From: Escherichia coli
GTDB taxonomy: Bacteria; Pseudomonadota; Gammaproteobacteria; Enterobacterales; Enterobacteriaceae
Length of the DNA stretch: 64,000 bases
Reading direction: 5' to 3' (one strand)
NCBI RefSeq assembly: GCF_016026235.1
Contig: NZ_CP065613.1
Shown here: positions 15,023 to 44,412 of the stretch, piece by piece
Layout of the letters: each line of letters starts with the position of its first letter
Position numbering within the stretch: position 1 is the stretch's first letter
Program-made: the position numbers and the translations under genes
The notes under the pieces: generated by a model
Told to the model about the DNA's origin: nothing
Databases searched by the model: none
What the model saw: only the letters and a program-made list of their open reading frames with translations

Positions 15023-15828
15023 AAAAAACAATTGCGCTTGTTTTCGCGGTCAGTCTGGCTGTCTTCGGACTTGTAGGTTGCGATCGCGTTGAACCAGGTA
15101 ATGTGGGTATCAAAGTCAACAAACTGGGCGACGACAAAGGTGTCGGTGAAGTGGTCGGTGTTGGTCGCTACTGGACTGGCTGGAATACTGAAGTTTACAT
15201 TTTCCCGACCTTCAAGCAAATGAAGACCTACGATGAACCGTTCAGTTTCCAGATGAGTGACGGCACAACCATCGGCTATCACATCGGCGTGGCCTACAAA
15301 GTTGATCCATCCAAAGTTACCACGGTGTTTCAGACTTACCGCAAAGGCGTGGATGACATTACCAACACCGACCTGCGCCAGAAGATCGCCGACGCACTCA
15401 ATCGGCTGGCCAGCAAAATGACCACCGACAAATTTATTGACGGCGGCAAGTCTGAACTACTGGATGCCGCACTTAAAGACATTCAGGAAGAGATGACACC
15501 CATCGGCATTCAGGTAATGAGCCTCTCTTATGTAGGTAAACCGGAATACCCTCCAACCGTTATCGACAGCATTAACGCCAAAGTCACGGCAAACCAGAAA
15601 ACCCTGCAGCGCGAACAGGAAGTCAAGCAACGTGAAGCGGAGGCCAACATGCTACGTGCGGAAGCTGCCGGACAGGCTGATGCCATTCGAACAAAAGCCC
15701 AGGCAGAAGCCGATGCCATTCGTTTACGCGGCGAAGCTCTACGCCAGAACCCAGGCGTCATGGAGCTGGAAGCCATCAACAAGTGGAACGGTACACTGCC
15801 GCAATACATGACCAGTGGTGTGAGGTAG
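15019..15828 (+). CDS. SPFH/band-7 (prohibitin-like) lipoprotein; extreme C-terminus replaced by IS600 copy 2
   Basis: Lipoprotein signal MKKTIALVFAVSLAVFGLVGC; SPFH-like body with coiled-coil tail (QREAEANMLRAEAAGQADAIRTKAQAEADAIRLRGEA); IS inserted about 10 codons before predicted natural stop (original frame resumes at 17085 and stops at 17116). Confidence 0.65.
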   Translation: MKKTIALVFAVSLAVFGLVGCDRVEPGNVGIKVNKLGDDKGVGEVVGVGRYWTGWNTEVYIFPTFKQMKTYDEPFSFQMSDGTTIGYHIGVAYKVDPSKVTTVFQTYRKGVDDITNTDLRQKIADALNRLASKMTTDKFIDGGKSELLDAALKDIQEEMTPIGIQVMSLSYVGKPEYPPTVIDSINAKVTANQKTLQREQEVKQREAEANMLRAEAAGQADAIRTKAQAEADAIRLRGEALRQNPGVMELEAINKWNGTLPQYMTSGVR

Positions 15829-15884
15829 CCTGAGTTTAACGGACACTCCTTCCTGAAATAGAATGGCATCAGAAGGAGCTAATA

Positions 15885-16187
15885 ATGAGCAGAAAAACCC
15901 AACGTTACTCTAAAGAGTTCAAAGCCGAAGCTGTCAGAACGGTTCTTGAAAATCAACTTTCGATCAGTGAAGGCGCTTCCCGATTATCTCTTCCTGAAGG
16001 CACTTTAGGACAATGGGTTACCGCCGCCAGAAAAGGGCTCGGTACTCCTGGTTCCCGCACGGTGGCTGAACTGGAATCTGAAATTCTGCAACTGCGTAAG
16101 GCGTTAAATGAAGCTCGCCTTGAGCGAGATATATTAAAAAAAGCAACAGCGTATTTTGCACAGGAGTCGCTGAAAAATACGCGTTAA
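15885..16187 (+). CDS. IS600 OrfA
   Basis: 100-aa ORF, differs from copy 1 at residue 5 (T vs N). Confidence 0.85.
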   Translation: MSRKTQRYSKEFKAEAVRTVLENQLSISEGASRLSLPEGTLGQWVTAARKGLGTPGSRTVAELESEILQLRKALNEARLERDILKKATAYFAQESLKNTR

Positions 16188-16222
16188 TCGAACAATGGCG
16201 ACAACAATTTCCCATTGAAGCG

Positions 16223-17041
16223 ATGTGTCAGGTATTTGGTGTATCCAGGAGCGGTTATTACAACTGGGTACAGCATGAACCCTCAGACAGAAAACAAAGT
16301 GATGAGCGGCTAAAACTGGAGATTAAGGTGGCACATATCCGCACTCGCGAAACATATGGAACCCGGCGGCTCCAGACGGAGCTGGCAGAGAATGGCATCA
16401 TCGTTGGTCGTGACCGACTGGCACGTCTTCGTAAGGAGCTAAGGCTACGCTGTAAGCAGAAACGCAAGTTCAGAGCGACTACGAACCCGAACCACAATCT
16501 GCCAGTTGCGCCAAATCTGCTGAACCAGACGTTCGCTCCTACAGCACCAAATCAGGTCTGGGTGGCGGACCTGACGTATGTTGCCACACAGGAGGGATGG
16601 TTGTACCTCGCTGGCATCAAAGATGTTTATACGTGCGAAATTGTCGGCTACGCCATGGGAGAGCGCATGACAAAAGAGCTGACAGGTAAAGCCCTGTTTA
16701 TGGCGCTCAGGAGCCAGCGCCCACCTGCCGGGCTAATCCACCACTCTGATCGAGGTTCACAGTACTGCGCATACGATTACCGGGTCATACAGGAGCAGTC
16801 TGGTCTGAAAACATCAATGTCGCGTAAAGGTAACTGTTACGACAACGCTCCGATGGAAAGCTTCTGGGGAACGCTGAAAAATGAGAGCCTGAGCCACTAT
16901 CGTTTTAATAACCGGGATGAAGCCATCTCAGTAATACGGGAATACATTGAGATTTTCTACAATCGTCAGCGTCGTCACTCTCGTCTGGGGAATATCTCCC
17001 CGGCAGCCTTCAGGGAAAAATATCATCAGATGGCTGCTTAA
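16223..17041 (+). CDS. IS600 OrfB
   Basis: 272-aa DDE transposase component, identical to copy 1. Confidence 0.85.
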   Translation: MCQVFGVSRSGYYNWVQHEPSDRKQSDERLKLEIKVAHIRTRETYGTRRLQTELAENGIIVGRDRLARLRKELRLRCKQKRKFRATTNPNHNLPVAPNLLNQTFAPTAPNQVWVADLTYVATQEGWLYLAGIKDVYTCEIVGYAMGERMTKELTGKALFMALRSQRPPAGLIHHSDRGSQYCAYDYRVIQEQSGLKTSMSRKGNCYDNAPMESFWGTLKNESLSHYRFNNRDEAISVIREYIEIFYNRQRRHSRLGNISPAAFREKYHQMAA

Positions 17042-17150
17042 AAAAAGAACAAATGGTAGTGTCCGCTATTGCCAGTACACCTCAGTGCCAATACACCATT
17101 TATCCAGATTAAATAACTTATATGCCCGGCAGGCCGCCGGGCTAAGGGAA

Positions 17151-32342: not shown

Positions 32343-34420
32343 TATTTGCCGCCAATTGTCGCCGTCATGCGGATATGTCGGTTATCAGACAGTTCCAGAT
32401 TCGACAGGACCACTAACTGCGGCAAGCTGCGGCGCAGGAAGCGAGACAATAATGGTCGCAGCGCGTGGTTCACCAACAATACTGGCGGCGCACCCAGCAT
32501 CTCCTGACGGGATAGCGCTTCCTGAGTTTGCGCCAGTAAACGATCCGCCAGCCCTGGCTCCAGTCCTCCCCCGCCCTGCAGCGCCTGTAGTAACAAACGT
32601 TCCAGCGGTGTATCGAGGCCAATAACATGGACTTCATCTTTGCCAGGAAACCACTGCTGGGTAATCGCCCGTCCCAACGCCACGCGCACGACGGCGGTTA
32701 ATTCATGTGGATCGCTTTGGATGGGCGCATGTTCCGCCAGCGTTTCGAGAATGGTGCGCATATCGCGAATCGGTACTTTTTCATCGAGGAGATTTTGCAG
32801 CACTTTATGCAGTGTGGTGAGCGTGACGACGCCAGGAACGAGATCTTCCGTCAGCTTTGGCATCTCCTGGGCGACGCGATCCAACAGCTGTTGCGCCTCC
32901 TGACGACCAAACAGCTCTGCGGCATGCTGGCTAATGAGGTGGTTAAGATGCGTTGCTACCACCGTGCTGGCCTCAACCACTGTGTACCCCTGAATCTGCG
33001 CCTGTTCTTTTAGCGCACTTTCAATCCAGATAGCATTCAGGCCAAATGCCGGATCGACGGTCGCCTCACCAGGTAACGTCCCGGCAGCGGTACCAGGGTT
33101 AATTGCCAGCCAGCGCCCCGGATAAGCATCACCACTGCCAATCTCTACGCCTTTCATCAAAATACGATAACGTGCCGGTTGCAGATCCATATTGTCGCGA
33201 ATGTGCACCACCGGCGGCAAGAAGCCCATTTCCTGAGCAAATTTCTTACGAATACTACGAATACGGCCCAGCAACTCGCCATCTTGTTGGAAATCAACCA
33301 TCGGGATCAGTCGATAACCCACTTCCATTCCCAGAGAATCTTCCAGTTGTACATCGTTCCACGTCGCTTCTACAACGGTATTATTCTCTGCCATTTTTAC
33401 CGGTTTGGGTTCGGCAGGCGCTTTTTGTTCGCGTCCGCGTATCCACCAGGCCAGCCCGAGCAATCCGGCAGTGAACAGCAAAAATACCAGGTTCGGCATT
33501 CCAGGCACCAGGCCGAGTAAACCGAGCACGGCGGCGCTTAACAACATAACGCTTGGGTTACTGAAAAGCTGATTCACCATCTGCTCGCCAACATCCTGAT
33601 CGGTGCTGACACGCGTAACGATGACCCCCGCGGCGGTAGAAATCACCAGCGCCGGAATTTGTGCCACCAGACCGTCGCCAATGGTCAATAGCGTATAACT
33701 TTCCGCCGCGTGTCCCATGCTCATGCCATGTTGCAGCACGCCGACCAGCAACCCGCCGACAACGTTAATGACCATGATGAGGATCCCGGCGATGGCATCG
33801 CCGCGAACAAACTTACTTGCCCCGTCCATTGAGCCGTAAAAATCGGCTTCCTGAGTGACTTCGGAGCGGCGTTTTTTCGCCTCATCTTCACCAATCAATC
33901 CGGCGTTAAGGTCGGCGTCAATCGCCATCTGCTTACCCGGCATACCATCGAGAACAAAGCGCGCACCCACTTCTGCGATACGCCCGGCACCTTTGGTAAT
34001 GACCATAAAGTTGATGATCACGAGAATGACAAACACCACGATACCGATAGCGAAATTGCCACCAACGAGGAAGTGACCGAACGCTTCGACCACCTTCCCT
34101 GCCGCCGCTGCGCCGGTATGCCCTTCCATCAAAATGATACGGGTTGAAGCCACGTTAAGTGCCAGACGCAACAGCGTGGTAAACAACAGAATGGTCGGAA
34201 ACGCAGCAAACTCGAGCGTGCGCTGGGTAAACATCGCCACCAGCAACACCATGATCGACAAGGCAATATTGAAGGTAAACAACAGGTCGAGTATGAATGC
34301 GGGCAGTGGCAGCACCATCATCGACAAGATCAACAGGATCAAAATCGGTCCGGCAAGGATCTGCCATTGTGTCGATTTCAGGTTTGCGGGCAGGCGCAGC
34401 ATCGCGGCCAGATTACTCAT
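32342..34420 (-). CDS. flhA: Flagellar export apparatus protein FlhA
   Basis: 692 aa from MSNLAAMLRLPANLKSTQWQILAGPILILLIL...; the 25 extra N-terminal codons in the ORF track come from read-through of the flhB 3' end. Confidence 0.93.
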   Translation of the reverse strand: MSNLAAMLRLPANLKSTQWQILAGPILILLILSMMVLPLPAFILDLLFTFNIALSIMVLLVAMFTQRTLEFAAFPTILLFTTLLRLALNVASTRIILMEGHTGAAAAGKVVEAFGHFLVGGNFAIGIVVFVILVIINFMVITKGAGRIAEVGARFVLDGMPGKQMAIDADLNAGLIGEDEAKKRRSEVTQEADFYGSMDGASKFVRGDAIAGILIMVINVVGGLLVGVLQHGMSMGHAAESYTLLTIGDGLVAQIPALVISTAAGVIVTRVSTDQDVGEQMVNQLFSNPSVMLLSAAVLGLLGLVPGMPNLVFLLFTAGLLGLAWWIRGREQKAPAEPKPVKMAENNTVVEATWNDVQLEDSLGMEVGYRLIPMVDFQQDGELLGRIRSIRKKFAQEMGFLPPVVHIRDNMDLQPARYRILMKGVEIGSGDAYPGRWLAINPGTAAGTLPGEATVDPAFGLNAIWIESALKEQAQIQGYTVVEASTVVATHLNHLISQHAAELFGRQEAQQLLDRVAQEMPKLTEDLVPGVVTLTTLHKVLQNLLDEKVPIRDMRTILETLAEHAPIQSDPHELTAVVRVALGRAITQQWFPGKDEVHVIGLDTPLERLLLQALQGGGGLEPGLADRLLAQTQEALSRQEMLGAPPVLLVNHALRPLLSRFLRRSLPQLVVLSNLELSDNRHIRMTATIGGK

Positions 34421-35561
34421 GGGTCGGTTTCTCGTTAATAAAATCCAGGGCTTCCGGCACCGGAAGATGAGTAGGTTGTACAGGGCGCTGTCCACCAGCC
34501 AGACGCCAGCGTTTCAGTTGCCAGACCTAGGCCAGCACTTCCGCCACCGCGGCGTACAGTTGACCCGGGATTTGTTGACCAATCTCCGCATGTCGATACA
34601 GCGCTCGCGCCAGCGGCGGCGCTTCAAGCGTCGGGACGTTATTTTCAGCGCCAATTTCACGAATGCGCAGCGCGACCAGCCCTGCACCTTTAGCGACCAC
34701 TTTCGGTGCGCTCATTTTGTTTTCGTCATACTGCAACGCTACCGAATAGTGGGTCGGGTTATTGACAATGACATCCGCTTTCGGCACATCGGCCATCATC
34801 CGACGCCGTGCAGCCGCTCGCTGCATCTGACGGATCCGCCCTTTAACATGGGGGTCGCCTTCGCTTTGTTTGAACTCATCACGAATATCCTGCCGCGACA
34901 TACGCAGCTTTTTCAGGTGGCTGAAGATTTGGAAAAAGACGTCAAATCCCACCATTGGAATGACACCAAGCACCACCAGCAGTGCGCATAGCCCTACCAG
35001 ATCCATCGCATTACCCATGGCGGTAATCGGAGACTCGGCCATTAAGCGCATCATCTGCGGCCAGTGATGCCAGAGAAAAAACCCCGTCACGCTGCCAACC
35101 AGGATGGTTTTCAAAATTGCTTTAAGTAACTCCGCGCCAGTCTGTGCCGAGAACATCCGTTTAATGCCCGGTAGCGGGTTGAGTTTGGAAAACTTCGGCT
35201 GCAAGGATTTGCCGCTAAATACCAGCCCTCCCAGCATGACCGGAGAAATGAGCGCCACCAGCACCACGCAGCTAATCAGCGGTAGCAGCGCCAGCATGGC
35301 TTCTCTGATCAGCAGAATAAACTGCCCGAGGATCAGATTCGGGTCATTGATAATACTGTGATCAAAATGCAGCCCAGCGGAGAGCATGCCCGACAATCGA
35401 CGGGCCAGGGACACACCGCCAAACCAGATAACACACACGCCCACCAGCAAAATCAGCAGTGAAGTCAGTTCACGGGAACGTGGGATTTGCCCCTCTTCCC
35501 GCGCTTTTTCTAGTCGGTGAGGTGTGGGGGCTTCTGTTTTGTCGTCGCTCTCGTCAGACAC
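34413..35561 (-). pseudogene. flhB: Flagellar export switch protein FlhB with premature amber codon (truncated about 38 codons before natural stop)
   Basis: ORF stops at TAG (34527-34529, inside CCTAGG) after ...LYAAVAEVLA; same frame continues VWQLKRWRLAGGQR...DFINEKPTHE to TAA at 34413-34415, which overlaps the flhA start as in intact operons. Confidence 0.8.
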
Positions 35562-35796: not shown

Positions 35797-37305
35797 ATGG
35801 AATGGCAACAATTGCTTAACTGCAACCGTCGGAAAGATAATCTAAAAAAAACCAACATAGCATTTTTACATCCCCTTGCTAGCGGAAGACAAGAGATCGA
35901 ACGGGATTACGACCGATTACTTTTTGCTGCGCCAACTCGTCGCCTTGCGGATAAAACACAAGTTTTCCCGTTAGATCAAAATGACAGCATACGGACGAGA
36001 CTGACTCATTCTCACGAAGTAGCAAACTTTGCTCGCGGAATAGGAATGAGACTCGCTTTCGAGATGAAGGAGCACATCTTTGGCGAAATACCCACGGGGA
36101 TTGTCGTTGAACGCGACGTTCCTGCTCTGTTAGCAGCGATCGGACTGGCACACGATCTCGGTAATCCACCATTTGGGCATCAAGGTGAAGCAGCGATGCG
36201 CGCATGGTTTAATAAAAATCTTCCAGGTCTTCTTGATAAAGAAGTAAACAGCGAAATATATAACGACTTTCTGCAATTTGATGGAAACTCACAAACCCTG
36301 CGCCTGGTTACCAAATTACAAATTATTAACGATAACTTTGGTCTGAATTTGACCTATGCCACGCTGGCTGCACTGATCAAATATCCCCGAGCTTCATATT
36401 CATCGGACAAACATTGGAAAAAGCACGGTTTTTTCTATTCTGAGCATGAGGTTGTCATGGATGTCTGGCAGCAAACGGGCCTTGGCGTACCAGGTAATGA
36501 TGCCGGTTGCCGCCACCCATTTACCTGGATAATGGAAGCTTGCGACGATATTGCCTACTCTGTGCTTGACGCAGAAGATACCATCAAGAAAGGATTTGCC
36601 TCATACCAGGATTTGCGTGATTTTTTGATGTCACAATCCGGGGCGAACGATGTAATTGAAAATGTTATTAAAGCTGTAGAGGCCAAAAATGACGCCTGGA
36701 AAGAGCAAAGAAATGCACTTTCACCGGCAGAAATTAATGAACTCAGTATGCAAATGTTCAGAGTGTATGCCACCAGTGCATTGATTAATGCCGTAGTAGA
36801 AGCCTTTCGCGAACAATTACCCACGCTGATGCAGCGTGACTGCCCGTTCAAAGATTTAATCTCGCAAAGCAAAGGTCACGCCCTCTGCACTGCCCTGAAA
36901 ATGTTCGACCGAACACGAGGCTACCTTCATCGTTCAGTCTTGCAACTGGAACTTAGGGGGTCTAATTACATTACTAACTTGATGGATATGCTCTGGATTG
37001 GCATCCATGGACACAAAACAAAGAAAGAACGAGACGGAGAACGCGAGTCCGCGTCTGCAGATAACCTTTTTGTTTCTCGTGAAGAATACCTGTCGGATAC
37101 TCCCTTTGGTCGCTATGCTTACGGGACAATATCTGAAAATTATCGCCGTGTGTTTGAAGATCCCGCCAATACACTCCCTGTTCTTTATAAAGAAGCGCAG
37201 TTGCTTACCGACGCAATCTCAGGCATGACGGATAGTTATTTAATGCGCCTTCACGATGAGCTAAAATCACTGTATGAATGTGGTCTCAAACACCCAACAG
37301 CTTGA
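35797..37305 (+). CDS. Dgt-family deoxyguanosinetriphosphate triphosphohydrolase-like protein (HD domain), divergent paralog
   Basis: 502-aa ORF with Dgt signature blocks KTQVFPL, RTRLTHSHEV, AHDLGNPPFGHQGE, FDGNSQ, HPFTWIMEACDDIAYSVLDAEDTIKKG, LLTDAISGMTDSY; lies between flhB and cheZ on the opposite strand. Confidence 0.85.
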   Translation: MEWQQLLNCNRRKDNLKKTNIAFLHPLASGRQEIERDYDRLLFAAPTRRLADKTQVFPLDQNDSIRTRLTHSHEVANFARGIGMRLAFEMKEHIFGEIPTGIVVERDVPALLAAIGLAHDLGNPPFGHQGEAAMRAWFNKNLPGLLDKEVNSEIYNDFLQFDGNSQTLRLVTKLQIINDNFGLNLTYATLAALIKYPRASYSSDKHWKKHGFFYSEHEVVMDVWQQTGLGVPGNDAGCRHPFTWIMEACDDIAYSVLDAEDTIKKGFASYQDLRDFLMSQSGANDVIENVIKAVEAKNDAWKEQRNALSPAEINELSMQMFRVYATSALINAVVEAFREQLPTLMQRDCPFKDLISQSKGHALCTALKMFDRTRGYLHRSVLQLELRGSNYITNLMDMLWIGIHGHKTKKERDGERESASADNLFVSREEYLSDTPFGRYAYGTISENYRRVFEDPANTLPVLYKEAQLLTDAISGMTDSYLMRLHDELKSLYECGLKHPTA

Positions 37306-38026
37306 ACAGCGTATCGCCGATTTTTTTACGCTTAGTGATGAGCATAAGAAAGCCAGAGTATTACTTGATACTCTGGCCTGTTCCTGTCCGGCCTGGATTT
37401 TTGGCGGGATGGTGCGTGACTTAGGCTTGTTTGGCGTCGAAGGATTCTCTTCAGACCTTGATATCGTCATCGGTCGCTCGCGTGAGGAACTCTTCCAGAC
37501 ATTGGCTGAACTGCCCGTCAAACAACTGCGTTTTAATAAGTTTGGTGGGATCCGTTTTCGTTATCACGACTTCGAATTTGATATCTGGAACCTCAATGAG
37601 ACATGGGCATTTCGGGAAAAACTTATATTTTGTGAGGATGAATCAAGTCTGTTAAACACTACGCTAATGAGTTGGGATGCCGTGCTCTATGATCTACGTA
37701 GTGAAAAAATTATCAGTAAAGATAATTATTTGACCGATTTAAATCGCAGACATCTTGAACTTGTTCTTCATACTAACCCCAATCCAAGCGGTTCGGTAAC
37801 GAAGATTTTACGCACTATTTTTACTAAGCAGGTAAAGAGTTTAGGGCCGGAACTCTGTCATTTCTTGCACCATGAACTGACGAAAAAACGTTATGAAGTA
37901 TGGCATCACTACGATGTACTGCACTACCAATCATCGTCATTTTCTCGTTCACAATTTAATGCATTGATAAATTTACTGGCGCAACAATCACGCTTCGCTG
38001 ATCTAAAATTATCAAACTACAAATAA
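37274..38026 (+). CDS. Pol-beta superfamily nucleotidyltransferase (CCA-adding/poly(A) polymerase head-domain-like), 250 aa
   Basis: Motif WIFGGMVRDLGLFGVEGFSSDLDIVIG matches GGxVRD...DxD head-domain signature of CCA-adding enzymes; start overlaps 3' end of dGTPase gene by 32 nt. Confidence 0.7.
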   Translation: MNVVSNTQQLEQRIADFFTLSDEHKKARVLLDTLACSCPAWIFGGMVRDLGLFGVEGFSSDLDIVIGRSREELFQTLAELPVKQLRFNKFGGIRFRYHDFEFDIWNLNETWAFREKLIFCEDESSLLNTTLMSWDAVLYDLRSEKIISKDNYLTDLNRRHLELVLHTNPNPSGSVTKILRTIFTKQVKSLGPELCHFLHHELTKKRYEVWHHYDVLHYQSSSFSRSQFNALINLLAQQSRFADLKLSNYK

Positions 38027-42750: not shown

Positions 42751-44412
42751 TCAAAATGTTTCCCAGTTTGGATCTTGTTCAGCAATTCGCAGTCGTGGCT
42801 GTGCCGGTGGTTGCTCACTGGCAGGACGGGATGGTGTTTGCGGTTTATTGGTGAGTGGGCTGGCTGCCAGACGGAACGCGGAAACCGCTTGCGTTAAACG
42901 ACTCGCCTGTTCTTCCAGCGCAGCGGCGGCGGCAGCTGATTCCTGCACCAGCGATGCGTTCTGTTGCGTGACGCGATCCATTTCCGAAACCGCCAATGCG
43001 ACTTGATCGATGCCACGGCTCTGTTCATCCGATGCCGATGCAATCTCGCCCATAATGTCAGTCACGCGAGTGACAGCATTGACGATATTGTTCATTGTTT
43101 CCCCGGCGCTTTCGACCAGCACCGAACCGGTATCAACGCGTGCGACGGAGTCTTCAATGAGGGCTTTGATCTCTTTTGCCGCTTGGGCGCTGCGACTGGC
43201 AAGATTACGCACTTCACCCGCCACCACGGCAAAACCACGGCCCTGTTCACCCGCACGCGCGGCTTCAACCGCGGCATTCAGCGCGAGGATATTAGTCTGG
43301 AAGGCAATACCGTCGATAACGCTGATAATGTCGGCAATTTTCTTCGAACTATCGGCGATCTCATGCATCGTTTTCACTACGCCATCCACCACTTTGCCGC
43401 CGTGCTGGGCGGTGTCGGAGGCACTTTGCGCCAGTTGCGAGGCCTGGCGGGCGTTATCGGCGTTTTGCTTCACTGTCGCGGTGAGCTGCTCCATGCTGGC
43501 GGCAGTTTCTTCCAGCGCGGATGCCTGCTGTTCAGTACGGGAGGAAAGATCGGTGTTGCCCGCCGCAATTTCACGGGTACCGGCATAGATGGCATCTGAA
43601 CCTTCGCGGACATGAGTGACGGTGTCAGTCAAAGAGCGTTGCATATGTGAAACGCTCTGCGCCAGGTCGCCCATTTCACTGCGCCCGTCAATGGTCAGGG
43701 TATTCGCCAGGTTACCACCGGCGATTTCGCGAATGTGAGCAATAATTTTTGCCAGCGGAGTAAGCAACATACGGCGAATGCCGTACCACGCCACCAGCAG
43801 AATCAATACCACCACCAGCGCGATAACCGCCAGTTGCCACTGGGCAAATCGGTAATCATCTGCGTTGTCAGTGACGATATCGCGATACAGTTTTTCACTG
43901 CTGAGGGCGTACTGAGCAAACGCTTCGCCCATTGCATTTTGCATTCCCTGGGTTGGCTGAGCGAAATAAGCTCCAGTATTGCCATAATCTAGATAATCAA
44001 TCAGTTCAGTTAACGCTGTGTAATAGTTTTTATATTTTTCATCAATATTACGACTGGTAGCGACCATTTCAGGTAACGGTGCCATGCTTTTGAATTTTTT
44101 ATAATGCGTCGCTGCCTGCGCCAATGTTTTCCTGGCGCTATCGAGCAATTCAACTTTGGCGTTACTTTGTTGATTGGAGGAATCCATCATCATCCGCACC
44201 GCTGAACGACTCAGGTTAATGCGCGTTTGCAGCATTAAATCCCAGGTTGACGTCAGCTCGCCCTGCTGTTCCCGTAATTGATTGGAAACCACAAAGCTCT
44301 TCTGGCTATGGTGAAGGGAAGAAAAAAACAGACTGCCGGAAATAAGCTGTAACAGTGCGAATACCCCCAGCACCATTACCAACAGCGTGACTACGCGGAT
44401 ACGGTTAATCAT
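42751..44412 (-). CDS. tar: Methyl-accepting chemotaxis protein II (aspartate receptor) Tar
   Basis: 553 aa from [22 protein letters not shown]...; C-terminal NWETF pentapeptide. Confidence 0.93.

What the first reader, a model, noticed from the sequence alone, without database searches (positions are those of the whole stretch)
34526..34531. flhB amber codon sits in CCTAGG, the footprint of 5-methylcytosine deamination at a Dcm site
The flhB frame stops at TAG after ...AEVLA, yet the next 37 codons in the same frame (VWQLKRWRLAGGQR...DFINEKPTHE) still read as the FlhB C-terminus and end at the stop that overlaps the flhA start. Intact FlhB has Trp (TGG) here as I recall it, so the ancestral plus-strand sequence would have been CCCAGG, containing a Dcm CCAGG site whose methylated second C gives exactly this C-to-T change. 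That suggests a recent single-step inactivation by a known mutational hotspot.
Basis: partly seen in the sequence, partly recalled or inferred. Interest (0 to 1): 0.55.

Follow-up and report, generated by a model that had tools for sequence, protein, structure and literature searches.

The report
Methylation-site stop codon in flhB
One C-to-T change at a cytosine that E. coli normally methylates turned tryptophan 345 of the flagellar export protein FlhB into a stop codon, in a small insertion-sequence-rich clone whose flagellar motor and chemotaxis genes were already broken: a real, textbook-type mutation and ordinary gene decay.

Summary
CCTAGG lies at 34526-34531. flhB (minus strand) stops at TAG after 344 codons. 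The next 37 codons still read as the FlhB C-terminus, ending at the stop that overlaps the flhA start.

The closest complete genome (FDAARGOS_943) differs at one base in 5.8 kb. It has C at 34528, giving CCCAGG, Trp345 and an intact 382-aa FlhB. The T allele is absent from 5,426 complete E. coli genomes; the C allele is in 5,354.

The stop is not a sequencing error. The exact 344-aa protein is on about 20 public contigs, and three fetched loci from different samples match the window.

The mutated base is the inner, Dcm-methylated C of CCAGG. On this branch 4 of 11 G:C>A:T changes hit such positions, against about 1% expected. One of them is a second amber, cheA Q579, also inside CCTAGG.

Close relatives with intact flhB already carry that cheA amber and an IS in motA, so the flhB stop is a late step in the decay of a dead motility system.

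Two caveats. Loss of FlhB function is unproven, because Salmonella FlhB truncations nearby still export. In other lineages codon 345 also becomes TGA, which methylation cannot explain.

The parts
34527..35561 (-). Truncated flhB reading frame: 344 codons plus the TAG stop.
   Evidence: ORF list. Pfam Bac_export_2 is recorded on the identical protein. It aligns 1:1 with intact flhB and carries G1034A = W345*.
34527..34529 (-). Amber codon TAG, replacing TGG (Trp345).
   Evidence: The sister genome has C at 34528, where the window has T.
34526..34531 (.). Palindromic CCTAGG hexamer. The ancestral sequence was CCCAGG, with a Dcm site CCAGG at 34527-34531 whose inner C is 34528.
34413..34526 (-). 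Orphaned flhB 3' end: 37 sense codons plus the native stop, which overlaps the flhA start by 8 nt. It is identical to the sister genome.
32342..34420 (-). flhA, intact at 692 codons. Ribosomes on flhB now terminate 114 nt before the native flhB stop (107 nt before the flhA start codon), so translational coupling may be lost (inference).
   Evidence: One search finds only synonymous differences. Gene calls.
45308..45313 (.). Second CCTAGG hexamer: cheA Q579 amber (CAG>TAG at 45311..45309, minus strand), again at the inner C of CCAGG.
46240..46241 (-). Site of a 4-bp deletion in cheA (codon 268), causing a frameshift.
   Evidence: The deletion is absent from relative L033.
48237..49528 (.). A 1.3-kb IS4-family element inserted in motA after nt 631, with an 11-bp target duplication.
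   Evidence: split motA alignment; IS4 transposase. The junction is shared with a relative that has intact flhB.
43183..43183 (+). C>T at the inner C of CCTGG (tar Q410, synonymous). This is another change at a Dcm-methylated position on this branch.
21850..21850 (+). C>T at the inner C of CCTGG (in yecN). This is the fourth change at a Dcm-methylated position on this branch.

Best explanation
The stop is a real, recent, single C-to-T transition at window position 34528. That base is the inner cytosine of a CCAGG site, which Dcm methylates. Deamination of 5-methylcytosine to thymine gave a T:G mispair that escaped very-short-patch (Vsr) repair and was fixed. This changed TGG (Trp345) to TAG on the coding strand and left CCTAGG behind. 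It happened in a small IS-rich E. coli clone in which chemotaxis (cheA Q579 amber, the same kind of mutation) and the motor (motA::IS4) were already dead, so it is a late and probably neutral step in flagellar gene decay.

Shown: the base change, its polarity, its sequence context, its restriction to one sub-clade, the order of events, and the excess of changes at Dcm-methylated positions.

Inferred: that this site was methylated and that deamination was the chemistry.

The product, FlhB(1-344), keeps the membrane domain, the NPTH autocleavage motif and almost the whole conserved cytoplasmic core. It lacks roughly the last eight residues of the C-terminal helix and the proline-rich tail. By analogy with Salmonella truncations it may still export with a loosened early/late switch. 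It may also lower flhA translation. In this strain neither effect can matter for swimming.
For: - Sequence and frame.
- Sister genome FDAARGOS_943 differs at one base in 5,801, which is C at 34528, and has an intact 382-aa FlhB.
- The 31-mer with T is in 0 of 5,426 complete genomes; the 31-mer with C is in 5,354.
- The exact 344-aa protein is on about 20 contigs. Fetched loci from GCA_001907535.1, SRR3578993 and SRR30892832 match the window at 0-1 mismatch.
- Polarised with three genomes, 13 changes are derived on the window branch. Of these, 11 are G:C>A:T and 4 hit Dcm-methylated positions (about 1% expected; P = 3.7e-6). Other branches show 2 of 98 (Fisher P = 8e-4). Adding private changes of close relatives gives 5 of 19 (P = 0.001).
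- In flhB only 1 of 35 possible G:C>A:T nonsense targets is a Dcm-methylated position, and that is the one hit. In cheA it is 4 of 45, and one of those was hit (joint P = 0.0025).
- Order of events: GCA_902503985.1 has the cheA amber and the same motA::IS4 junction but intact flhB.
- dcm and vsr are annotated as intact in the sister genome and in a sister-group draft.
- Background on Dcm, Vsr and CCWGG hotspots: PMC2715241 and PMC13250602.
Against: - One event cannot be assigned to a chemistry, and ordinary G:C>A:T transitions dominate this branch anyway.
- In other E. coli backgrounds codon 345 is a stop as TGA (5 places) about as often as TAG (5 places, 6 counting the window clone). TGA changes the outer, unmethylated C.
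- In laboratory mutation accumulation, CCWGG sites account for only a small share of G:C>A:T changes (PMC13250602).
- Neither methylation of this site nor the state of dcm and vsr in this very genome could be checked.
- The excess rests on four or five events in 36 kb.
Confidence: 0.8

Rival explanations
1. The C-to-T change is methylation-independent, for example a replication error or other damage in the CCC/GGG run. Alternatively, its presence reflects selection or tolerance for stops at exactly this codon, and the Dcm context is a coincidence.
For: Unrelated backgrounds carry TGA (L038, L039, L040, L043, L049) and TAA (L035) at codon 345 as well as TAG (L034, L036, L037, L046, L047). In the two backgrounds where all three nearby Trp codons were looked up, true stops number 8 at W345, 2 at W347 and 0 at W352. 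So both G's of this codon are hit more often than those of its neighbours.
Against: It does not explain why 4 of 11 transitions on this branch, including the second amber in cheA, fall on inner cytosines of CCWGG. The survey counts are small and confounded by clonal sampling and contig-end truncations.
Confidence: 0.15
2. The stop is a sequencing or assembly artefact, for example methylation-induced miscalls at Dcm motifs in nanopore data.
For: Nanopore variant calls are known to be wrong mainly at CC(A/T)GG sites (PMC6703438). All four unusual substitutions sit in that motif.
Against: The allele is in independent assemblies: a 411,807-bp NCBI contig, two roughly 30-kb IS-bounded draft contigs, and contigs assembled from raw reads of other runs. 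The four changes are nested across isolates in the way inherited mutations are. As I read PMC6703438, the described nanopore errors are A/G and T/C calls at a base lying between the C and G runs of the motif, which would not create TAG.
Confidence: 0.02
3. The truncation is not decay but a selected functional allele. Under this reading FlhB(1-344) is an export-gate variant with a relaxed substrate switch or lower flagellar output, and was favoured in this and other lineages.
For: In Salmonella, premature stops in the FlhB C-terminal domain are the main class of mutants that allow late-substrate secretion (PMC13344023, section 6). Truncations 1-350 to 1-360 keep motility and bypass FliK (PMC7771051, discussion). 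Stops at codon 345 recur in many backgrounds. Alignments to injectisome homologues end near residue 343-347.
Against: In this clone motA and cheA were already dead before the stop arose, so no motility-linked benefit is available. No phenotype data exist. Truncation at 344 is shorter than any Salmonella allele cited in the papers I could read.
Confidence: 0.12

Closest known systems
Amber hotspots at CCAGG sites in lacI (5-methylcytosine deamination at Dcm sites, countered by Vsr very-short-patch repair)
   Same: The motif is the same (CCWGG), the mutated base is the same (inner C), and the change is the same (C>T producing TAG inside CTAGG). cheA Q579 here is the literal lacI-type case, CAG>TAG. 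flhB W345 is the opposite-strand version, TGG>TAG. Background from established knowledge (Coulondre et al. 1978; Lieb 1991) and PMC2715241.
   Different: The lacI hotspots were measured as mutation frequencies in a reporter gene. This is a fixed natural allele in a wild clone, and methylation and repair status are inferred rather than measured.
Salmonella flhB C-terminal truncation alleles (fliK suppressors; FlhB lacking its C-terminal tail; stops in the FlhB C-terminal domain)
   Same: A premature stop downstream of the NPTH autocleavage site removes the proline-rich tail and the end of the last helix. E. coli W345 aligns with Salmonella W346.
   Different: According to PMC7771051 the tested Salmonella truncations end at residues 350-380. 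This one ends five residues earlier, inside the helix. Those alleles were selected in the laboratory for a phenotype; this one arose in a strain that cannot swim.
Flagellar gene decay in non-motile, IS-rich E. coli/Shigella-type lineages
   Same: There are multiple independent lesions in one regulon (nonsense, frameshift, IS insertion). The sister genome carries different lesions of its own (cheZ frameshift, fliR::IS1). IS600, IS1 and IS2 are abundant.
   Different: The pathotype of this clone was not established here. The Shigella FlhB entries in the same protein cluster carry a different lesion, an N-terminal truncation.

Membership tests
Mutation at a Dcm 5-methylcytosine hotspot | The ancestral sequence is CCWGG. 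| tested here: met
   The sister genome and 5,354 complete genomes have CCAGG at 34527-34531.
Mutation at a Dcm 5-methylcytosine hotspot | The change is C>T at the inner cytosine (or G>A opposite it). | tested here: met
   34528 C>T, polarised with three genomes.
Mutation at a Dcm 5-methylcytosine hotspot | dcm is present in the lineage. | tested here: inconclusive
   dcm and vsr are annotated as intact in sister FDAARGOS_943 and in a sister-group draft. The carrier genome outside the window could not be read.
Mutation at a Dcm 5-methylcytosine hotspot | Such positions mutate more often than other G:C pairs in the same lineage. | tested here: met
   4 of 11 against about 1% expected, P = 3.7e-6. 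Other branches show 2 of 98. The numbers are small.
Mutation at a Dcm 5-methylcytosine hotspot | This cytosine is actually methylated, and the mutation rate depends on dcm and vsr. | not testable with these tools
   This needs methylome data and fluctuation assays.
FlhB/YscU export-gate switch protein | Bac_export_2 domain, four-helix membrane domain, and NPTH autocleavage motif. | tested here: met
   Pfam PF01312 is recorded on the identical protein. The sequence contains ...VIVNNPTHYSV.... E = 3e-232 to the solved Salmonella FlhB structure.
Non-functional pseudogene | The product has lost its function. | not testable with these tools
   Only 38 of 382 residues are lost. Salmonella 1-350 is functional (PMC7771051). 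No data exist for 1-344.
Switch-relaxed FlhB C-terminal truncations (Salmonella type) | The truncation allows late-substrate export or filament assembly without FliK. | not tested
   The position is compatible (PMC13344023), but no phenotype is available.

The most novel reading that the evidence does not exclude
This clone is a natural '5-methylcytosine mutator'. On its branch, Dcm-methylated cytosines mutate some 30-50 times faster than other G:C pairs, against about 2-fold on other E. coli branches. In addition, 83% of all its new substitutions are G:C>A:T. That pattern would fit weakened or lost very-short-patch repair (or raised Dcm activity), making CCWGG sites the main source of its new nonsense pseudogenes. 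Two of two nonsense mutations in this window fit that pattern.
Probability: 0.2. Interest if true: 0.55.

Novelty: new member of a known kind. Interest (0 to 1): 0.3.

Why it matters
It is a clean natural example of a textbook mutational mechanism creating pseudogenes. Two amber codons 11 kb apart each sit in the otherwise absent hexamer CCTAGG. The example comes with a datable order of events in the erosion of a flagellar regulon. Practically, it shows that CCTAGG inside an E. coli reading frame is a quick flag for a methylation-site nonsense mutation. Such stops are also expected to revert relatively easily, because Vsr promotes CTAGG>CCAGG (PMC2715241). On either strand of this palindrome that change would restore a sense codon, TGG or CAG (inference). 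It does not change what is known about FlhB or Dcm.

Tried and rejected
- **Shigella 345-aa FlhB entries.** I first suspected that the 345-aa Shigella entries in the same protein cluster carried the same allele. They are N-terminally truncated and keep W345.
- **dcm/vsr by synteny.** I looked for dcm and vsr in the sister genome by position. The first two guesses landed in prophage and defence islands; the genes were found at 595.9-597.8 kb. The Dcm protein is too common for its exact sequence to pick out the carrier's own contig.
- **Age of the cheA amber.** I first took the cheA amber in L010 and L012-L014 as evidence that it is ancestral to a wider clade. One search shows these are divergent backgrounds, so they are independent recurrences or contig ends. 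The ordering therefore rests only on the close relatives L015, L016 and L033.
- **Recurrence as a hotspot test.** I used recurrence of 344-aa truncations in other FlhB backgrounds to test for a hotspot. It did not discriminate, because TGA is as common as TAG. Many apparent truncations, for example 8 of 9 places for W167* and all places for W352*, are contigs that simply end there.
- **Amber suppressor.** The window holds only one tRNA gene, tRNA-Met. The rest of the genome could not be checked.
- **Literature.** The sample accessions and strain identity returned nothing useful. Kutsukake 1994 and Williams 1996 are not in the held library.

Full report
**Observation**

The plus strand reads CCTAGG at 34526-34531. 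flhB lies on the minus strand. The ORF 34527..35561 gives 344 residues ending AAVAEVLA, followed by TAG. Translating on in the same frame gives 37 more codons, VWQLKRWRLAGGQRPVQPTHLPVPEALDFINEKPTHE, then a stop at 34415..34413. That stop overlaps the flhA start at 34420 by 8 nt.

**Ancestral state**

A 5.8-kb query around the site finds one complete genome, E. coli FDAARGOS_943, that differs at a single base. The difference is C instead of T at window 34528, and flhB there is annotated as intact at 382 aa.

A 31-mer centred on the T allele matches none of 5,426 complete E. coli genomes. The same 31-mer with C matches 5,354. Intact FlhB proteins have Trp at 345, which aligns with Salmonella W346.

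So the ancestral plus strand was CCCAGG. The Dcm site CCAGG occupies 34527-34531, and the mutated base is its inner cytosine, the one Dcm methylates (PMC2715241).

**Is the stop real?**

The exact 344-aa protein is in public data as STM86623.1. It is carried on about 20 contigs, including a 411,807-bp NCBI contig that is probably the source of the window. Loci from GCA_001907535.1, SRR3578993 and SRR30892832 match the window at 1, 0 and 0 mismatches over 21, 11 and 4 kb.

This matters because nanopore data make errors precisely at CC(A/T)GG motifs (PMC6703438). Independent assemblies, IS-bounded contigs of about 30 kb, and a nested distribution of the variants among isolates all argue against an artefact.

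**Is the Dcm context more than coincidence?**

I polarised the differences between the window and its sister using two further genomes. Thirteen substitutions are derived on the window branch. Eleven are G:C>A:T, and four of those fall on Dcm-methylated positions: 21850, 34528, 43183 and 45311.

Such positions make up about 1% of G:C positions in the 36 kb compared, which gives P = 3.7e-6. On the other three branches the share is 2 of 98 (Fisher P = 8e-4). Adding the private mutations of close relatives gives 5 of 19 (P = 0.001).

The fourth event is a second amber codon: cheA Q579, CAG>TAG on the minus strand. It also sits in CCTAGG, at 45308-45313. These are the only two CCTAGG hexamers in the window, and three homologous 45.8-kb loci have none.

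Within flhB only 1 of 35 possible G:C>A:T nonsense targets is a Dcm-methylated position, and that is the one hit. In cheA the figure is 4 of 45. dcm and vsr are annotated as intact in the sister genome and in a sister-group draft. They could not be examined in the carrier genome itself.

**Order of events**

Compared gene by gene with an intact relative, the window's flh/che/mot cluster has four lesions:
- flhB W345*
- cheA Q579*
- a 4-bp deletion at cheA codon 268
- a 1.3-kb IS4-family element in motA (48237-49528)

The other twelve genes are intact.

Isolate GCA_902503985.1 has intact flhB and a 578-aa CheA, meaning the amber without the deletion. It also has the identical motA::IS junction. 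Another relative (L015) adds the 43183 change but still has intact flhB.

So the motor and chemotaxis were already disabled before flhB was hit. The flhB stop arose on the innermost branch, together with the cheA deletion and 40188. The orphaned 114-nt tail has no further change. The sister genome decays independently, with a cheZ frameshift and fliR::IS1.

**What the stop does**

FlhB(1-344) keeps the membrane domain, the NPTH autocleavage motif and nearly all of the conserved cytoplasmic core. Alignments to injectisome homologues end around residues 343-347. It loses roughly the last eight residues of the C-terminal helix and the proline-rich tail.

Three published results bear on function:
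- Deleting the proline-rich tail in Shewanella reduces flagellation but does not abolish it (PMC7771051).
- Salmonella FlhB 1-350 to 1-360 remain motile and bypass FliK (PMC7771051, citing Inoue 2019 and Kutsukake 1994).
- Premature stops in the FlhB C-terminal domain are the main class of mutants that permit late-substrate secretion (PMC13344023).

'Inactivation' is therefore unproven. A weakened, switch-relaxed protein is at least as likely as a null, and early termination may also reduce coupled translation of flhA (inference). In this strain none of this affects swimming.

**A complication from other lineages**

I looked up 344-residue truncations of eight other FlhB alleles, and four exist in public data. 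At the DNA level the true stops at codon 345 are:
- TAG in L034, L036, L037, L046 and L047
- TGA in L038, L039, L040, L043 and L049
- TAA in L035

These come from backgrounds that differ by 5-400 nt per 7 kb. TGA changes the outer, unmethylated cytosine, so 5mC deamination cannot explain it.

Controls were mixed. In one background W347*, Q348*, Q329*, Q330*, Q334* and Q362* are absent, and W352* and Q358* are seen once each. In another background W347* has two true stops and W352* has none. Many apparent truncations are just contigs that end at the site.

Codon 345 thus seems to be hit more often than its neighbours through both G's (8, 2 and 0 true stops). The cause is unexplained. Recurrence alone does not support the Dcm reading. 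That reading rests on the lineage-specific excess described above.

**Comparison and verdict**

This is the natural counterpart of the classic lacI amber hotspots at CCAGG, occurring twice within 11 kb, inside a decaying flagellar regulon of the kind well known from non-motile IS-rich E. coli and Shigella. The mechanism and the biology are both textbook. The particular allele, its dating relative to the other lesions, and the strong Dcm-site signature of this clone are new details.

Interest is modest. The most novel reading still open is that the clone has weakened very-short-patch repair. That would fit its rate ratio of about 30-50-fold at methylated cytosines, against about 2-fold on other branches, and its 83% G:C>A:T spectrum.

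Noticed in passing
window 45308-45313: A second amber codon, cheA Q579 (CAG>TAG), sits in the only other CCTAGG of the window. It is also at the inner C of an ancestral CCAGG. The same stop is present in two divergent backgrounds (L010, L012), so it too seems to recur.
   Followed up: yes
L034-L050 (other E. coli lineages), flhB codon 345: Stops at flhB codon 345 recur in unrelated E. coli as TAG, TGA and TAA. Several contigs from other samples end exactly at GCC|T|G, which suggests within-sample polymorphism at these bases. TGA cannot come from 5mC deamination. The cause (a locally hypermutable GGG/CCC run, or selection for this truncation) is unresolved.
   Followed up: partly
window 35797-38026: A two-gene insert lies between flhB and cheZ: a 502-aa dGTPase-family protein (PADLOC dGTPase, E = 1e-70; below NCBIfam equivalog cut-offs) overlapping a 250-aa protein with no family match. 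The full 5.8-kb query that includes this insert is covered at 80% or more in only 106 of 5,426 complete E. coli genomes. It is possibly a small anti-phage module.
   Followed up: partly
window 48237-49528: An IS4-family element, whose transposase ORF is incomplete relative to the family model, interrupts motA with an 11-bp target duplication. Part of it matches a stretch annotated in the sister genome as an incomplete ISEc60-family transposase.
   Followed up: yes
window 20677-58134 (branch-specific substitutions): Recent substitutions in this clade are 83% G:C>A:T (19 of 23), against 37% on the longer branches of two other genomes (P = 3e-5). This is a deamination-like spectrum.
   Followed up: partly
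window 35270 and 35321 (flhB codons 98 and 81): FlhB of this clone and its sister carries G98C and I81F in the membrane domain. Every other allele examined has G98 and I81. This may reflect relaxed constraint before the stop arose.
   Followed up: no
L002 25815-26460; L022 15352-16913 (sister genome FDAARGOS_943): The sister genome keeps flhB, cheA and motA intact but has its own cheZ frameshift and an IS1 in fliR. This indicates parallel, independent decay of the flagellar system in the two sub-lineages.
   Followed up: partly
window 1-20677: The left third of the window is mobile-element rich. It holds three near-identical IS600-type copies (about 4754-6017, 15821-17087 and 19413-20677), an integrase and a truncated DnaB-like helicase. 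The sister genome has extra IS copies absent from the window (IS600 between argS and flhE, IS1 in araF and in ftnB).
   Followed up: no
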